A stretch of 64,000 bases of DNA. Source: Verrucomicrobiota bacterium (GTDB lineage: Bacteria > Verrucomicrobiota > Verrucomicrobiia > Opitutales > Seribacteraceae). Position numbers: made by a program. The stretch covers positions 32,001 through 96,000 of the forward strand of contig JAQBYT010000004.1 of the NCBI GenBank assembly GCA_027622665.1, given 5' to 3'. Positions 22,401 through 31,400 of the stretch are shown here, one piece after another (positions within the stretch are counted from its first letter, which is position 1; every line of letters begins with the position of its first letter).

Positions 22401-25400
22401 CGTTTTCCTCTAATCCCCAATATGGCGTCGGGCCATTCCGGACAGGTTTGACTTCGCTCCCATCCGCCAAAATATTGTTTTTCTCCAGCTGGAATTCTTC
22501 TTCGGTGACAATACCTTGATCTCGAAGTTTGTTTAGCTTTTCCAGTTTGTCGTACTTGTCGGACATATTTTATGAAGAGTTGCTGTATCGTCTTGCCAAG
22601 GTCAAGGCTACATCGCGAATGGGACTTATGGAGTTACTTTGCCTGATGGAAGGCTTGCCGAGTTCAACGAACCGGCTGCACTTCCTCTTCCCACACGGCC
22701 AACAATTTCCTCAAGCGAGCAACTTGTTCGGATTTCTTTTGGCTGAGGTCGTTTGACTCTCCAATGTCGTTGGATAGATCATAAAGCCACTCCTCCGTGG
22801 TGCCTTCCGTTTTTCGAACGTATTTGTAGCTACCGTCCCTAACGGCCCACCATGTACGCTCCCCGCGCTTGCCTCGCCAATAGAGAGTGCGTTTGAAGTT
22901 CGGTTTTTGTTTTGCCACATGGTCAACGACGTCGAATCCATCGAGCAGATTGGCAGGCGTCTTGGCACCTGCCAAGTTAAGGATGGAGCGAGTTAGATCG
23001 AAAGTCGCGCAAACCTGATCACTGGTCTTGCCCGACGCAATGTGTTCCGGCCATCGGATTATCAAGGGTACTCGAATGCCGCCTTCCAAAGTACTGCTCT
23101 TTGCTCCTCGCAGAGGTCCCATGTGGGCTGCCTTGGCAAATCCGCCATTGTCTGACACGAAAATGACCAAGGTGTTCTTAACTAGATTGCTTTCCTCAAG
23201 TGCCTTGAGGAGTCGACCTACTTCGCTATCAAGATCCTCGAGCATGGCGACGTATGCCTTGGCATTCACTTCTGTCCAGTTCGTTTCGTCGACGGCTTTC
23301 CTCTCGTCTCCGGGGCCTTGAAACGGGAAATGCGGGCTCTCGTGGGAGACAAAGAGGAAGAAAGGCTTTTCCTTGTTGCGCTTAATGAAATCTATCGAGG
23401 AATCCGTGATCAGGTGAGTCATGTAGCCTTTGCGATAAACGGGTAGACGATCCTTGAACAACACATGTAGGTCGCTCAACTCGCGATGGTTGAAGTAGTG
23501 GACGTTGCCGCCCATGTAACCGAAGAACTCATCCCATCCATGCTCGAGCGGATTGAACTGGGGTTCGTAACCGAGATGCCATTTGCCGAATACGCCGCAA
23601 GCATATCCTGCCGTTTTGAGGGCCGAAGGAAGTACGGACTGCTTGGCAGGCAAGCCGAGCTGCCGTTTTTCTGCCAATTCGATTGCCTCATCGTAACGCC
23701 CCACGTTACCCGTTCCAATGGAGCATTCCAAGCCGCCCGCCCGTTGCTGATATCGGCCTGTAAGCAATGCAGTGCGCGTGGGACTGCACTCCGGACCATT
23801 GGCGTAATGTTGTGTGAATCGCACGCCCTCCTTTGCCAAACGGTCGATCCGGGGAGTCTTGGCTACGGGGTGACCAGAACAACCGAGATCTCCGTAACCG
23901 AGGTCGTCTGCAAAAATAAACACTATGTTGGCAGGTTTGTCTGCAAATCCGTGGCATGCCAAAACGGTGGCGAGGAATAGGAAAGAAAGAATGTTATGAA
24001 AGTGATTCATTTGATTTGGGGATGTTCACGGAGTCGAATATTTTGAGATGCTTAACAGAAAAGCCAGTGGAAAAGGATAATATCGCTAGCATGAATTAGG
24101 ATTTGCCTACTGGGCAACTTTTAGTTGGTTCTAAAAGCCCTAATCTCTTACCTGCCCCCCCATGCATTAATTATTTGCATCCCAAATCCTCATGAAGACT
24201 ATTATTAAAACTTTTTTCTACGTTGTTTCTGCCTGTGCATTGTCTATGCCTTTTTCACTGTCGGCCAAAAAGACCTTCGAGGGCAAAATGGAAGCTGTCT
24301 CCAATCAGCTCAAGGCGGCGGTGAAGTCAGGCAAGTTGTCCGAGGAGGATGCTTGGGCCAAGTGGAAGGCGATTCAAGGAGATTATCAAGAATCCAAGAA
24401 GGGATGGGACATGGAAGCCATCGCTAAGAAACTTAAGGCTGCTGTGGCGGCAGGCAAGATTTCCGAGAGTGAAGCTCGTCAAAAATGGGAAGCGATAAAA
24501 GACGAATCCTACCATCTCAAAGATTCAGGCCATGATGACGGAGAAATTAATGAGGAGGAGGAACTTTGGGAAGAAGTCGGGCGTGGTTTGAAGGCGGCCA
24601 TCGAGTTGGGCAAGATCGAGGAGGAGGAAGCAAAAGAGATTTGGGAGGACCTGAAGACTGACGATTTCGAAGATGAGCATGAAGGCGATGAGGGTTTTCA
24701 TAGAGACGAAGAGATAAGGGAACTGCACTTCGATCTCGAAAGAAATAACCTTGAATTTGAACTCGAAAGAATGGAGAACGAGCAGGATCGTGAACGCAAG
24801 CAATGGGAACAGGACCTGCAGCGAATGGAACATGATTTCGAACGAGAGCGTATGGAATGGGAGTTGGAAAGAATGGCATGGGAGCGTGAACGTGATCACC
24901 TGCATCGCCAGTGGGATAACGAAAGACGCCATCACGATCATCCTCATCAGGATCGGAACTGAATCCAGCGGTTGGGCATTCCAATTCCCGTAATTTCACT
25001 ACATCCGTTTTATAGTATAAATGATGTGATCAAAGTCTGAACACAGATATACCTTTTCTGAAATATGCTCCGTTGACGGTTTTTCCGCTGGCGGAGCTTT
25101 TTTTATAAAGATTTTTGGTAACCCATCTCCAGTTCGGACTGTATACTGTAAGATGACTTTTATTGTTCATGGAGCTTTCCGAGGAATTTTCTTTGCGCGC
25201 ACACGGACGCTACGAATGCATAGGGCATGAACGTCCATTCCTATTCAGTTGCCCGCCAGTCCATCGGCTACTTGGAACACGCAGGGGCAAACTTGGCCAA
25301 AAGTCTGGGGAGGCTATCGTCGGGAACCAAGATCAATACCAGTGAGGACGATGCGGGCGGCCTTGCCGTTTCCGCCAAGATCAACTCGGCGATTACCAGA

Positions 25401-28400: not shown

Positions 28401-31400
28401 GGCAAGCTGGACATAGCGTTCACAGGCACCCCGACGGGCACGGGCAACCTGACCCTGACCGTGGACCCCGGCGTCATCCGAAATCCCGCCGACCTCGTCG
28501 GCATCGCCAACCCGACCAACCTCTACGACCCCGCTGAGCCCGCACCGACCGTCACCATCACAGGAGCGGACAAGGGAACCCTTGCGGGAACCGCAACCAT
28601 TCGGCCTGACGGAAACGTAAATGTGGCGCTGGCAGGGATCCCCGCGGGGACGGGCAACTTGACTGTAGCAGTAGCCGACGGGCGAGACAAGGCGCCCGCG
28701 AACCTAGCGGGCATAGGATCAGGCTACGATCCGGGAGAGGCAGTTCCTGCAGTCACCATAACCGGAGCGGACGCGGGAACTCTTGCGGGAATTTCAACCA
28801 TCAACGCGAACGGCACCATCGACGTCGCCTTCTCCGGAAATCCCTCCGACATAGGGAACCTCACCGTGGCTGTGGCAGACGGCGTAGTTCGCAAGCCCGC
28901 CGACCTAACGTCCATAGGATCAGGATACGACCCCGCCGAGCCGGCGCCGGCAGTGACCTTTGCAGGAGCAAGCGCGGGAACGCTCTCGGGAACCTCCTCT
29001 ATCAATGGTGACGGCACCCTGAACGTGACCCTTGCCGGCGCTCCCACAGACACGAACGACGTCACGATGAACGTTGCAAACGGTCTACCGGGAGTAGCCG
29101 ACCTGACGGGCATTGGTTCAGGCTACACGACAGGTGATCCTGCTCCGGGCGTAACGGTTTCGGGAGCTAATGCGGGAACCTTGGCGGGAACTGCCTCGAT
29201 CAATGCCAACGGCACATTGGACGTGAACTTTACGGGAAATCCAAGCGACACCAACAACGTCACGGTACAAATCGCCGACGGGCTCGCACGAGTTGCAAAC
29301 CTCTCGGGCGTGGGGTCAGGATACGATCCGGGTGAGGCAGCCCCGGGCATCAGCATCACCGGAGCCAACAAGAACACCCTGAACGGCGCCGCGACAATCA
29401 ATGCAAACGGTACTTTAGATGTAAGCTTCGGCGGCAACCCGGCGGACTTCAACAGTCTGGGAATTCAAGCTGCAGACGGAGTCACTCAAGCCCCGAACGC
29501 ACTGACGGGACTGGGCGGGAATCACGATCCGGGTTCACCTCCTGCCGTTACCATTACGGGAGCGGACAAGGGTACGCTTGCCAGTGTAGCTAGCGTGAAT
29601 GCAGACGGCACTGTCAACGTCTCATTCACGGGGAGTCCATCAGGCCCAGGCCCATTGACTGTGCAAATCCCAGGTGGAGTTGCCTCGAATCCCATATCAA
29701 ACCAATACCTACTGGAAATAGATGGAGACTTGTGGGATTATACAGTGGCTGAGTTTGTTGCATTCACCTCGATAATCGCGGATGCCAGAGCCCAAAACGG
29801 CGCCGAGCAAAACTCCCTCAACACCAATTGGAATAGCCTTTCCACAAGAATCAACCAACTGGAACAAGCCAATGGGAGGATAACCGACACAGACTTTGCA
29901 GAAGAAATGACCAAACTGGGAAAATCTCAAATCCTCAGCCAGTCTGCATCCTCTATGCTTGCAAAATACAATCGAACCCAAACCGAGGCCCTCCTGAAGT
30001 TGCAAAACTTAGCAGGCAACCTCTAGCTGTGGTCGGGGAGAGCGATCCGGTTGAAGATCATGCGATTTTCCATTGCCTTTCTCCTGCTCGTAGGTTGTCA
30101 GAGTAGAAACCTTGAAGAGACGCCAGATCTGGATGATCTGGAGGTCCTTGAGAAGATAGTCGCGTAGGCGATGGATGTTAAAAAACTGCAGTTTAAAAGA
30201 CGGGTTCTGTCGAAGAAGGCATATCTCCTTCCAAACCTGAAGAGCTCGTTGTTGAAACCAAGGTTAAACCAGATAGCGTGACATTTGAAGAATTGGAAAA
30301 ACATGAAGACCTCTATGACTTCAAGGTTTAGACACTCTCTTATACAGGTAAAGTTTTTGGATTTTATGAAAACAGACAGAAACACTTTGAAGGAGCTTTC
30401 AAGGACGGCGACATGAATGGACTGTGGATGAGGTGGCATGAAAACGGGCAGAAGATGTATGAAGGAAGGAACAATAACGGGGAAAAGTTTATGTAACCCA
30501 TCTACAGTTCCCGCTGTATATATTCACATGACATTGATCCATTATGGACCTTCTTTGTTGTGCGAGGGGCGTAGGGTGGTTTCTACGCCCCTAAATTTAT
30601 TGTAACCCATCTATAACTTTCGCTGTATATTTAATATGACTTTTATTGCTTATGGAGCTTTCCGAAGAATTTATTCTTGAGCTGACTGAGGTGCAGCAAA
30701 GGCTTTTCGGCTTCCTGTTCAAGCGATTGGCTGATCGCGAGCAAGCTCGTGAGGTGTTGCAGCGGACCAACCTGGTTTTGTGCCGTAAGGCAGACAACTA
30801 CGAATCAGGAACTAATTTCAAGGCATGGGCGATGACCGTGGCCAACTACGAAGTGATGGCCTATCGCAAAACGCAGGTTCGCGAACGCTTGGTGTTCACC
30901 GCCGAAGTGGATGCCATGATTGGTCCGGATGAAGACGGGAGATCCTCCGCTCAATCGGCTCACCTCAGTCACTGCCTGCAAGGCATGTCGTCGAAAAACC
31001 GGGAACTTCTTGATTGGCGATATCAAGGAGAGCACACCATGGAGAAGATCGCCGAGGATATTGGCAGCACGATCGGGGCGGTGAAGGTGAAACTGCATCG
31101 CCTGCGCCGACAATTGCTGGGCTGCATTCAAAACCGCATGCAAGAGGACGGAATATGAAAGAAGAAGAAAAGTTATGGAAAGATGAACTGGATGCCCTGC
31201 TCGGCAAATTGGTGGACGAGGGTCTCACGGTTGCGGACAAGGCGCGGTTGAACGAGATCCTGCAAACCGAACCCGGGGCTCGGGAGTTCTACCATGAATA
31301 CCTCGATCTTCATGGTGCCCTGGAGGAACGTCTGGGTGTCCCGGACTTCTCCCCACTCAACGCCGTAATCGATCCCGAAACCAAGGAGGAATCCAAACCA

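What a model noticed while it worked through the whole genome (the two positions that open the first line are those of the whole stretch)
25227..30026. 1,599-residue flagellin carrying a beta-propeller, a LamG lectin fold and Ig-like repeats, cut by one in-frame TAG
Two adjacent gene calls (g02247, Flagellin_N + two PQQ_2/BamB-like propeller hits; g02248, second half of a Laminin_G_3 domain + about 8 Ig-like 60-aa repeats + Flagellin_C) are one 4.8-kb flagellin gene interrupted by a single in-frame TAG at the conserved Trp of the LamG domain. I read it as a giant 'decorated' flagellin whose exposed hypervariable region is a complete beta-propeller + lectin + Ig array, i.e. a flagellar filament that displays thousands of copies of a glycan-binding (or catalytic) module, in a marine sulfated-glycan degrader. 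New would be the largest class of flagellins so far (relatives 1,365-2,283 aa), the first with a propeller/LamG insert, and the first giant flagellin [...]
Evidence so far: Reading TAG (C49:59738-59740) as W gives one 1,599-aa frame in which Pfam finds Flagellin_N 14-138 (7e-16), PQQ_2/Beta-prop_ACSF4 327-649, one complete Laminin_G_3 812-972 covering HMM 1-150 of 151 (1.4e-28; its halves lie on either side of the TAG), Big_6/Filamin-like repeats, Flagellin_C 1517-1587 (7e-13). Search of 5.8e9 proteins with residues 300-1000: a 100%-identical uninterrupted 1,599-aa protein with Trp at the TAG position (P0241; also Trp in P0242-P0244; calls 123, 124) and 12 further clusters with Flagellin_N/C + PQQ_2 and/or Laminin_G_3, 998 to 2,283 aa (93-42% id). 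The genome has 17 flagellin-type calls incl. 930- and 581-aa ones, and FlgK 1,083, FlgL-like 1,065, FliD 968 and 1, [...]
(Added by a program. Inside this text positions count along the whole contig: contig position 32,001 is position 1 of the stretch shown here. "Call 12" and the like, gene names such as g00115 and contig names such as C1 are that model's own, and its searches are not shown. The text may have been shortened before it was handed on; [...] marks where a part breaks off. The agent that wrote the report below was given it as the finding of a first reader that could run no searches.)

Follow-up and report, generated by a model that had tools for sequence, protein, structure and literature searches.

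The report
Stalked giant flagellin, broken here
A marine Opitutales bacterium carries a 1,599-residue flagellin whose surface part is predicted to be a long stalk tipped with a beta-propeller and a lectin-like domain, but this genome's copy is a natural nonsense allele that also lacks the family's flagellar promoter.

Summary
Window 25227-30026 (+) is one frame with a single in-frame TAG (27738-27740) at an invariant LamG Trp. Read through, it gives Flagellin_N, an 8-bladed BamB/YxaL-type propeller, one Ig-like domain, a complete Laminin_G_3, 8 Ig-like repeats and Flagellin_C.

The TAG is a real, segregating nonsense allele. It is also in Logan's own assembly of the likely source run and in a second 837-aa haplotype. 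Two other samples and five intact protein variants carry TGG. This copy also lacks the sigma-28-type promoter kept by all 9 distinct relatives.

New here: the N-side linker of ~12-residue Thr/Pro repeats and the C-side array of ~66-residue Ig-like repeats change in step, about 1:1, across 14 family members with three head types. That argues for an out-and-back stalk with propeller and LamG at its tip. One complex model gives weak support (0.50, best control 0.00). A single-chain AlphaFold model does not.

The novelty claims are overstated. Flagellin entries up to 1,965 aa, propeller (FG-GAP) flagellins and Laminin_G_3 flagellins are already tabulated in print. The family is rare and confined to one Opitutales family. 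Filament incorporation, ligand and expression are untested. This is a new variant of a known kind.

The parts
25106..25110 (+). TAAAG at -121 from the ATG, the position of the -35 element of the sigma-28-type promoter in relatives. No YCGAT -10 element follows at a spacing of 14-16.
25227..30026 (+). Whole flagellin-family gene (1,599 codons plus TAA stop), interrupted by one TAG
25227..25736 (+). N-terminal D0/D1 helical region (residues 1-170). It is 50% identical over residues 16-137 to the genome's canonical 346-aa flagellin.
25737..26111 (+). Outward linker (residues 171-295): a constant part of ~35 residues, then about 8 Thr/Pro-rich repeats of ~12 residues (G-x-TP-x-QTVNG)
26112..27191 (+). 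8-bladed BamB/YxaL/PQQ-like beta-propeller (residues ~296-655)
27216..27416 (+). Single Ig-like repeat between propeller and LamG (residues 664-730)
27660..28142 (+). Laminin_G_3 (concanavalin A-like jelly roll), residues 812-972
27738..27740 (+). In-frame TAG at codon 838, which is TGG (Trp) in all intact relatives and in two other samples
28152..29708 (+). Return stalk: 8 Ig-like repeats of ~66 residues (residues 976-1494; the first is partial)
29709..30026 (+). C-terminal D1/D0 helical region (residues 1495-1599) and TAA stop

Best explanation
The locus is one flagellin paralogue of a marine Opitutales bacterium. Its two ends are the D0/D1 core halves that all flagellins use for export through the flagellar type III system and for polymerisation.

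Between them the chain is predicted to go out and come back. It goes out along about 8 short Thr/Pro-rich repeats of ~12 residues. It forms a distal head made of an 8-bladed non-catalytic BamB/YxaL-type propeller, one Ig-like domain and a LamG jelly roll. It returns along 8 Ig-like repeats of ~66 residues. The two repeat arrays change in step across the family, so I infer a hairpin-like stalk. Its length would be roughly 25-30 nm if each Ig-like domain spans 3.5-4 nm (my estimate). The stalk would hold a ligand-binding head away from the filament core.

The most likely role is adhesion or ligand capture on the flagellum, probably as a minor subunit among the genome's canonical flagellins. In relatives the gene sits behind a sigma-28-type promoter.

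In this genome the gene is a natural nonsense allele (TGG>TAG at Trp838) without that promoter. Here it is probably inactive, or at most yields an 837-residue fragment that cannot polymerise.

Shown: the gene structure, domains, folds, allele states, promoter presence or absence, and repeat co-variation. Inferred: stalk geometry, filament incorporation and binding function.
For: Gene and domains.

Flagellin identity:
- Flagellin_N and Flagellin_C score above Pfam cut-offs.
- NCBIfam flagellin models score 71-102 bits against 51.5 for FlgL.
- The N part matches solved filament flagellins, for example 9n8g at 7.9e-19.
- Identity to the genome's own 346-aa flagellin is 50% (N part) and 38% (C part).
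- The genome encodes FliD, FliS, FlhA, FlgK, FlgL and FliW.

Folds: the AlphaFold model of residues 285-1010 has mean pLDDT 77.9, with 85-95 in the propeller. Foldseek's best hits are Cake8 (TM 0.90 by target), YxaL (0.76) and BamB (0.78-0.81).

Repeat co-variation:
- In 11 full-length members, linker length against stalk length gives Spearman 0.99.
- The fit is linker = 38.7 + 11.5 x number of Ig repeats, r = 0.97.
- By my count of the linker repeats in the printed sequences against the Ig-repeat counts, two other head architectures hold the same 1:1 ratio: L084, 12 and 12; L008, 8 and 8.
- The closest pair, P0005 and P0008, differs by one 50-aa linker indel and one 268-aa stalk indel, which is 4 repeats each.

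Complex model of linker with stalk: weak support, ipSAE 0.50, best control 0.00. That mark was reached by 116 of 157 solved complexes and 2 of 215 mismatches. Runs agree in at least 81% of contacts, and partner pLDDT is at least 64.

Selection: dN/dS against L082 is 0.26 overall, 0.116 in LamG and 0.20 in the stalk.

Promoter: all 9 distinct relatives have CTAAAG-N15-YCGATT at -117 to -122.

Nonsense allele is real:
- Logan's own contig of the likely source run has 0 differences at depth 11.9.
- Runs X5 and X12 read G at 27739.
- A second 837-aa haplotype, P0272, differs by Q326R, and five intact variants carry W838.
- No CUA-anticodon tRNA is among the 38 tRNAs found.
Against: - No filament, proteomic or binding data exist.
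- The single-chain AlphaFold model of a shorter relative (L002 residues 105-1304) left the linker without confident structure. pLDDT was 24-49 over model residues 15-165, and mean pLDDT was 66. Strand pairing along the stalk is therefore not supported by that method.
- The complex score is only 'weak support'.
- The positions of the paired indels in P0005 and P0008 do not mirror each other exactly, though gap placement within repeats is ambiguous.
- The first 15 residues lack the canonical xINTN start of the genome's other flagellins.
- This copy lacks the sigma-28-type motif: the best match is 7 of 11.
- The genome has canonical flagellins at two loci.
- The family is patchy. It appears in 4 of 201 genomes of the order, counting G000 and one weak 35% hit.
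- Two copies are interrupted: this one, and L005 by a TGA. The gene is therefore dispensable at least at times.
- Sequences in the co-variation analysis are related, not independent.
Confidence: 0.6

Rival explanations
1. It is a flagellin-like secreted protein, not a filament subunit. The D0/D1-like ends serve only as an export signal for the flagellar type III system. The protein would act as a free or cell-attached adhesin, as I recall for the secreted flagellin homologue FlaC of Campylobacter.
For: - The N-terminus is atypical, with no xINTN motif.
- The gene stands alone among sulfatase genes, away from flagellar operons.
- Canonical flagellins exist elsewhere in the genome.
- All NCBIfam flagellin scores lie under the curated cut-offs.
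- The AlphaFold model leaves the linker unstructured.
Against: - Both D0/D1 halves are full length. Flagellin_N covers HMM positions 12-137 of 139 and Flagellin_C 11-81 of 86.
- They are 50% and 38% identical to a canonical flagellin of the same genome.
- The 1:1 matching of linker and stalk repeats is what an out-and-back insert anchored at both ends in a polymer core requires. A free protein does not require it.
Confidence: 0.2
2. It is an enzymatic flagellin. The propeller, alone or with LamG, would be a glycan-degrading catalytic module displayed on the filament, as the peptidase is in flagellinolysins.
For: - Proteolytic flagellins are established (PMC5595980 abstract; PMC7643111 passages).
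- A pectate-lyase-like outer-domain cluster has been predicted (PMC11532411 section 11).
- Sulfatase genes flank the gene in this genome and in relatives.
- One relative's propeller, in P0124, also hits the lambda-carrageenase propeller model at 6.2e-11.
Against: - The best structural matches are non-catalytic BamB, YxaL and designed proteins. PQQ dehydrogenases align poorly, with TM 0.38-0.49 by target.
- No catalytic Pfam family is found in the window protein at E up to 0.01.
- No active-site residues were tested.
Confidence: 0.08
3. The TAG is not a defect. It would be an assembly or consensus error, or it would be read through (recoded) in this organism.
For: An intact protein, P0001, is identical at every other residue. 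One base separates TAG from TGG.
Against: - Logan's independent assembly of the likely source run also has TAG, at depth 11.9 with 0 differences over 4.8 kb.
- A second 837-aa haplotype sits on another contig.
- No suppressor tRNA is among the 38 found.
- Relatives use TAG as their own stop codon.
- Contigs can hide minority alleles, so the allele frequency is unknown.
Confidence: 0.04

Closest known systems
Giant flagellins (Thomson et al. 2018, PLoS One, PMC6248924)
   Same: These are flagellins of more than 1,000 aa with conserved D0/D1 ends and very large surface inserts. They are frequent in marine bacteria, and Planctomycetes are among the phyla listed. Sources: abstract, section 12 and S1 table.
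   Different: [quoted passage not shown] Here the insert consists of recognisable modules (propeller, LamG, Ig-like repeats) with a matched N-side repeat linker. No filament data exist for it. Length alone is not new, because the table already reaches 1,965 aa.
Predicted flagellin outer-domain clusters of Fields et al. 2024 (Nat Commun, PMC11532411): cluster #55 'WD40-repeats', and the Laminin_G_3 entries
   Same: A beta-propeller or a LamG domain is inserted between the D1 halves of a flagellin. Ig-like domains are the commonest outer-domain fold. Sources: section 11 and supplementary table 2.
   Different: The 16 rows of cluster #55 that I saw are 545-670 aa and carry an FG-GAP_3 propeller placed directly on D1. 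The 8 LamG entries are 476-1,117 aa. No row carries PF13360, PF13570, PF01011, PF17936 or PF00630. No combination of propeller + LamG on a long repeat stalk is described. I read only section 11, some passages and searched rows of the table, not the whole paper.
Flagellinolysins (proteolytic flagellins; Eckhard et al. 2017, PMC5595980; PMC7643111)
   Same: They set the precedent that a functional module in the hypervariable region is displayed on assembled flagella. The same genome carries a 581-aa flagellin with a Peptidase_M9 hit. Opitutae members of that peptidase cluster are tabulated.
   Different: This protein has no peptidase or other catalytic domain. The head looks like a binding module.
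BamB / YxaL 8-bladed PQQ-like beta-propellers
   Same: The fold matches: TM by target is 0.76-0.81, and 0.90 to the designed Cake8. PQQ_2 scores above the Pfam cut-off.
   Different: Those are free periplasmic or secreted proteins. Here the propeller is an internal domain of a flagellin.

Membership tests
Bacterial flagellin (FliC/Hag; Pfam PF00669 + PF00700) | N-terminal helical region above the Pfam gathering score | tested here: met
   58.9 bits against a cut-off of 26.6, residues 14-138, HMM positions 12-137 of 139
Bacterial flagellin (FliC/Hag; Pfam PF00669 + PF00700) | C-terminal helical region above the Pfam gathering score, in the same polypeptide | tested here: inconclusive
   49.2 bits against 23, residues 1517-1587. 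In this window it is in the same polypeptide only if TAG838 is read through. It is met outright in P0001 and in 10 aligned relatives.
Bacterial flagellin (FliC/Hag; Pfam PF00669 + PF00700) | Closer to flagellin than to the hook-filament junction protein FlgL | tested here: met
   NCBIfam flagellin models score 71-102 bits and TIGR02550 FlgL 51.5 bits, all below the curated whole-protein cut-offs. The genome's own FlgL-like gene sits beside FlgK.
Bacterial flagellin (FliC/Hag; Pfam PF00669 + PF00700) | Class-3 (sigma-28-type) flagellar promoter | tested here: not met
   The motif is absent upstream of the window copy. It is present in all 9 distinct relatives and upstream of two other flagellin genes of this genome, on C8 and C26. 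The consensus TAAA-N15-GCCGATAA is recalled. The family motif comes from the alignment.
Bacterial flagellin (FliC/Hag; Pfam PF00669 + PF00700) | Polymerises into the flagellar filament | not testable with these tools
   Needs purified filaments. The genome does encode FliD, FliS, FlhA, FlgK, FlgL and FliW.
Giant flagellins (>1,000 aa; Thomson 2018) | Length over 1,000 aa with flagellin ends | tested here: met
   The intact allele is 1,599 aa and relatives are 1,363-2,283 aa
Giant flagellins (>1,000 aa; Thomson 2018) | Forms thick filaments | not testable with these tools
   No culture or micrographs are available
Enzymatic flagellins (flagellinolysin type) | Catalytic domain in the hypervariable region | tested here: not met
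   No catalytic Pfam family at E up to 0.01. The propeller's best structural matches are non-catalytic.
PQQ-dependent dehydrogenase propeller | Large (~550-700 aa) 8-bladed propeller closely superposable on quinoprotein dehydrogenases | tested here: not met
   Quinoprotein alcohol dehydrogenases (8gy2, 6zcw, 1kv9) give TM 0.38-0.49 by target and rmsd 9-16 A. BamB, YxaL and Cake8 give 0.76-0.90.
Laminin_G_3 / concanavalin A-like lectin fold | Full-length match to PF13385 and a jelly-roll fold | tested here: met
   100.4 bits, HMM positions 1-150 of 151. The modelled region is all-beta with pLDDT 70-89. Carbohydrate binding itself was not tested.

The most novel reading that the evidence does not exclude
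This would be a bacterial 'hairy' flagellum. Each subunit would carry a rigid hairpin stalk of ~25-30 nm. In the stalk, every ~12-residue N-side repeat zips onto, or donates a strand to, one C-side Ig-like repeat. These would be discontinuous domains in series, extending the split-domain principle of FliC D1/D2. The stalk would present an exchangeable head: propeller + LamG, propeller alone, or two propellers. Stalk length would be tuned by coordinated gain and loss of repeats on both arms. Such a filament would be a bottle-brush adhesin for algal glycans or particles, and its drag could differ from that of a smooth filament.
Probability: 0.25. Interest if true: 0.8.

Novelty: new variant of a known kind. 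Interest (0 to 1): 0.55.

Why it matters
Flagellin outer domains are increasingly seen as functional surfaces. Almost all studied ones are compact domains packed on the filament.

If this reading is right, this family shows a different design: a repeat-built stalk of adjustable length with swappable binding heads. It gives a concrete rule to test, one N-side repeat per C-side Ig-like repeat. It would extend what a flagellar filament can display. It would also link motility and attachment in marine bacteria that degrade sulfated glycans.

The segregating nonsense allele and the missing promoter show that the gene is dispensable in some populations. That is useful for judging its cost and role.

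If the stalk model is wrong, what remains is an unusually modular member of the already known giant flagellins.

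Tried and rejected
- Recoding of TAG is rejected. There is no CUA tRNA, other samples read TGG, and relatives use TAG as their stop.
- Assembly chimera is rejected. The same architecture occurs on independent contigs (L001, L002, L003, L008, L082-L084).
- FlgL identity is rejected (the genome's own FlgL-like gene is).
- AlphaFold of a near-complete short relative was meant to show the linker on the stalk. It gave a low-confidence, mostly coil linker, so it provides no support.
- Mirror-image placement of the paired indels in P0005 and P0008 was looked for as a test of antiparallel register. It was not clearly seen, because gap placement in repeats is ambiguous.
- RNA evidence: run X15 holds 4 short contigs (151-203 nt) identical to the gene, and none covers the TAG. 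DNA carry-over cannot be excluded, so expression is not shown.
- The metagenome scan returned only 5 family loci. The other 71 loci kept were not counted as family members. Of the 56 loci with a complete reading frame, most encode canonical xIxINSN-type flagellins of about 290-1,001 aa.
- An E. coli-type sigma-28 consensus scan did not discriminate between genes. Only the family-specific motif did.
- The LamG sequence search of solved structures gave only distant hits: pappalysin, an S-layer protein and arabinanase AbnA. No ligand inference was drawn.
- The NCBIfam 'TafC fimbrial protein' hit is a LamG-domain similarity only.

Full report
**Observation.** Window 25227-30026 (+) is a single reading frame of 1,599 sense codons with one internal stop. 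The stop is TAG at 27738-27740. Mechanical ORF listing splits the frame into 25227-27740 (837 aa) and 27810-30026 (738 aa). With TAG read as Trp, Pfam returns the following:
- Flagellin_N 14-138 (7.3e-16);
- PQQ_2 / Beta-prop_ACSF4 over 327-649;
- a complete Laminin_G_3 at 812-972 (HMM 1-150 of 151, 1.4e-28), which straddles the stop;
- weak Big_6 and Filamin;
- Flagellin_C 1517-1587 (6.8e-13).

A search of 5.8 billion proteins with residues 300-1000 finds a 100%-identical uninterrupted 1,599-aa protein, P0001. It also finds 13 further clusters of 998-2,283 aa that combine flagellin ends with PQQ_2 and/or Laminin_G_3. Trp838 is invariant in all 11 intact relatives aligned.

**Is the stop real?**
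- Logan's own assembly of run X1, the probable source, carries the window sequence with 0 differences over 4.8 kb at depth 11.9. Runs X5 and X12 from other samples read G at 27739, giving TGG, at depths 20.9 and 23.9.
- In the protein collection the 837-aa product is on record. So is a second 837-aa haplotype, P0272, which differs by Q326R and lies on another contig.
- Five intact variants (P0001, P0270, P0271, P0273, P0275) carry W838.
- None of the 38 tRNAs found has a CUA anticodon, and relatives end their own genes with TAG.

The TAG is therefore a genuine, segregating nonsense allele. It is neither an assembler error nor recoding. Contigs hide minority alleles, so frequencies are unknown. 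A relative in another MAG, L005, carries an in-frame TGA where the aligned family members have Gly, Ser, Leu or Ala.

**Organism and setting.** The window is part of a 4.52-Mb, 66-contig, 93.5%-complete genome. The genomes that hold relatives are labelled Opitutia or Opitutales, in Verrucomicrobiota. The neighbours are sulfatases, a GDSL hydrolase, SufE and an ECF sigma/FecR pair. No flagellar gene is adjacent. In relatives a sulfatase lies divergently upstream and another lies downstream. In the window, three extra genes sit between the upstream sulfatase and the flagellin gene. They are a DUF4870 protein, a sulfatase and a 256-aa charged protein with its terminator.

The genome has a full flagellar set: FlhA, FliS, FliD in a 1,165-aa frame, FlgK of 1,083 aa, a FlgL-like protein of 1,065 aa, FliW and MotA. 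It has 14 Flagellin_N matches. Canonical flagellins with MxIxINTN starts have 302, 316, 346 and 938 aa. Several divergent stand-alone paralogues also exist.

**Is it a flagellin?**
- Both helical regions pass the Pfam cut-offs and are nearly full length.
- NCBIfam flagellin models score 71-102 bits against 51.5 for FlgL, although all are below the whole-protein cut-offs.
- The N part matches solved filament flagellins, for example 9n8g at 7.9e-19.
- Against the genome's own 346-aa flagellin, identity is 50% over residues 16-137 and 38% over 84 C-terminal residues.
- All 9 distinct relatives with upstream sequence keep a sigma-28-type motif, CTAAAG-N15-(G/A)YCGATT, 117-122 bases before the ATG. 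The same motif stands before two other flagellin genes of this genome, on C8 and C26.
- The window copy keeps TAAAG at -121 but has no YCGAT at the right spacing. Its best match to the family motif is 7 of 11.

So the family belongs to the flagellar regulon by this criterion, and this copy has lost the signal. Polymerisation cannot be tested here.

**The insert.** An AlphaFold model of residues 285-1010, built on an alignment of 12 rows, has mean pLDDT 77.9, with 85-95 in the propeller. Foldseek against the PDB gives the designed 8-blade Cake8 (E 4e-19, TM 0.90 by target), then YxaL (0.76) and BamB (0.78-0.81). Quinoprotein dehydrogenases fit poorly, at 0.38-0.49. The propeller is thus of the non-catalytic scaffold or binding type. 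The LamG part has only distant solved relatives by sequence: pappalysin, an S-layer protein and arabinanase AbnA. A profile built from the repeats finds one Ig-like repeat between propeller and LamG (664-730) and eight after LamG (976-1494).

**The new point: two repeat arrays that change together.** Between ND1 and the propeller lies a linker. It has a constant part of ~35 residues followed by Thr/Pro-rich repeats of ~12 residues (G-x-TP-x-QTVNG).
- In 11 full-length members, linker length and stalk length give these pairs (Spearman 0.99):
  - 92 and 315 (three members);
  - 111 and 433;
  - 121 and 505;
  - 128 and 516 (two members);
  - 152 and 650;
  - 166 and 661;
  - 175 and 1,152, the stalk including a second propeller;
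  - 202 and 918.
- Against counted Ig repeats the fit is linker = 38.7 + 11.5 x n, r = 0.97. That is one linker repeat per Ig-like repeat.
- The window protein has about 8 and 8.
- The rule holds in two other head types, by my count of the linker repeats in the printed sequences against the Ig-repeat counts: L084 (1,610 aa, propeller without LamG, 12 and 12) and L008 (1,363 aa, Ig + a different propeller, 8 and 8).
- The closest pair, P0005 and P0008, differs by one 50-aa linker indel and one 268-aa stalk indel, four repeats each.

Flagellin inserts must leave and re-enter the D1 core. Matched arms are therefore what an out-and-back stalk needs, with propeller and LamG at its tip. The sequences are related, so these figures are not independent tests. 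At least four lineage-specific coordinated changes are visible.

**Structure predictions are split on how the arms meet.** A complex prediction of linker (168-298) with stalk (974-1502) gave weak support. The ipSAE was 0.50 (0.47, 0.50 and 0.53 in three runs) and the best control 0.00. That mark was reached by 116 of 157 solved complexes and 2 of 215 mismatches. Runs agree in at least 81% of contacts and partner pLDDT is at least 64. The linker's pLDDT was 31 with an unrelated chain. The stalk's pLDDT was 84 with the linker and 63-65 with unrelated partners. In contrast, a single-chain AlphaFold model of L002 residues 105-1304 (mean pLDDT 66) left the linker at pLDDT 24-49 and largely coil. 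Whether the linker zips onto the Ig-like repeats or merely spans them stays open.

**Selection and mosaicism.** Against the 90%-identical L082, dN/dS is 0.26 overall, 0.116 in LamG, 0.20 in the stalk, 0.37 in the propeller and 0.28 in the linker. All parts have been under purifying selection. Synonymous divergence is much higher in the D0/D1 ends (0.48 for the N end, 1.2 for the C end) than in the insert (0.10-0.27). This suggests recombination between ends and insert.

**Distribution.** The propeller part is found in 4 of 201 genomes sampled from the order, counting G000 and one weak 35% hit. Three of the four are in the window's own family. In 1.84 billion 50%-cluster representatives, only 17 match the stalk plus C-terminus at E of 1e-30 or better, and many of those are fragments. 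The family is rare.

**Comparison with print.**
- Thomson et al. 2018 defined giant flagellins (more than 1,000 aa) and showed thick filaments for two gammaproteobacteria (abstract and passages).
- Their S1 table lists PF00669 proteins of 1,965, 1,943, 1,932, 1,815 and 1,675 aa, plus an apparently misassigned 2,628-aa fungal entry (part 1 of 43 read).
- Fields et al. 2024 clustered 16,948 predicted outer domains into 682 clusters. They mention a peptidase cluster (#15), a pectate-lyase-like cluster (#35) and 'WD40-repeats' (#55) (section 11).
- In their table the 16 rows of cluster #55 that I saw are 545-670 aa with FG-GAP_3. Eight entries carry Laminin_G_3. No row carries PF13360, PF13570, PF01011, PF17936 or PF00630.
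- Searches for 'flagellin + LamG', 'flagellin + hypervariable region + propeller' and 'flagellin + beta-propeller + outer domain' gave nothing closer.

Size, a propeller insert and a LamG insert each have precedent. The PQQ-type propeller, the combination and the matched-repeat stalk do not, within what I could search.

**Verdict.** This is a real and unusual member of the giant flagellins. It is best read as a stalked, head-bearing flagellin that probably serves attachment or ligand capture, most likely as a minor filament component. In this genome it is a natural loss-of-function allele: a nonsense codon together with a missing promoter motif. It is a new variant of a known kind, of moderate interest. 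Interest would be high if the stalk model and filament display were confirmed.

Noticed in passing
G000:C30:4162-5907 (-) = L077:4165-5907: A 581-aa stand-alone flagellin paralogue has a Peptidase_M9 hit (residues 231-318, 7e-6) between Flagellin_N and Flagellin_C, and a sigma-28-like motif upstream. It looks like a flagellinolysin-type proteolytic flagellin. Opitutae and Verrucomicrobia members of that cluster (#15) are already tabulated by Fields et al. 2024.
   Followed up: partly
G000:C58:16098-17440 (-) = L081:8098-9441: A second flagellin-like paralogue of this genome is interrupted by one in-frame stop, TGA (...NLQNA*SFTQAQDG...), in the conserved ND1 motif. So 2 of the genome's flagellin-type genes carry single nonsense codons.
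   Followed up: partly
L005:1-3861 (Opitutia MAG contig): A relative of the giant flagellin has an in-frame TGA (...TETAP*VRILADG...) where the aligned family members have Gly, Ser, Leu or Ala. This is a second interrupted copy in the family.
   Followed up: no
G000:C3 (L079:5810-12277) and G000:C15:~50966-51907: All extracellular axial proteins are enlarged. FlgK has 1,083 aa. The FlgL-like protein has 1,065 aa with a weak CBM_5_12 hit at 707-732. FliD lies in a 1,165-aa open frame.
   Followed up: no
G000:C8:4073-6889 (-), and loci L087-L143: A canonical-type 938-aa flagellin has no Pfam domain in its ~720-aa insert. It lies next to an MptE-like (Maf-type) gene. Homologues of 785-1,001 aa are common in marine metagenome contigs and are often tandem.
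   Followed up: partly
window 25227-30026 compared with L082: Synonymous divergence is far higher in the D0/D1 ends (dS 0.48 for the N end, 1.2 for the C end) than in the insert (0.10-0.27). This is the reverse of the usual flagellin pattern and suggests that ends and insert have different histories through recombination.
   Followed up: partly
L001:8001-14849 (P0003, 2,283 aa): This relative carries a second PQQ-type propeller inserted inside the Ig-like stalk, so head modules can also sit part-way along the stalk.
   Followed up: no
upstream of the C8 and C66 flagellin genes (L074, L075): The leaders of the canonical flagellin genes carry a GGA-in-hairpin motif plus an AAGGAGG Shine-Dalgarno sequence. 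From memory, this resembles CsrA binding sites, and FliW is encoded in the genome. The giant flagellin leader has only weak GGA motifs.
   Followed up: no
window 30646-37860 and 37960-41259: Downstream lie an ECF sigma/FecR pair, then CarboxypepD_reg and beta-propeller proteins (Vgb_lyase/SGL-like, YNCE-like), and a 1,099-aa protein with two sulfatase domains.
   Followed up: no
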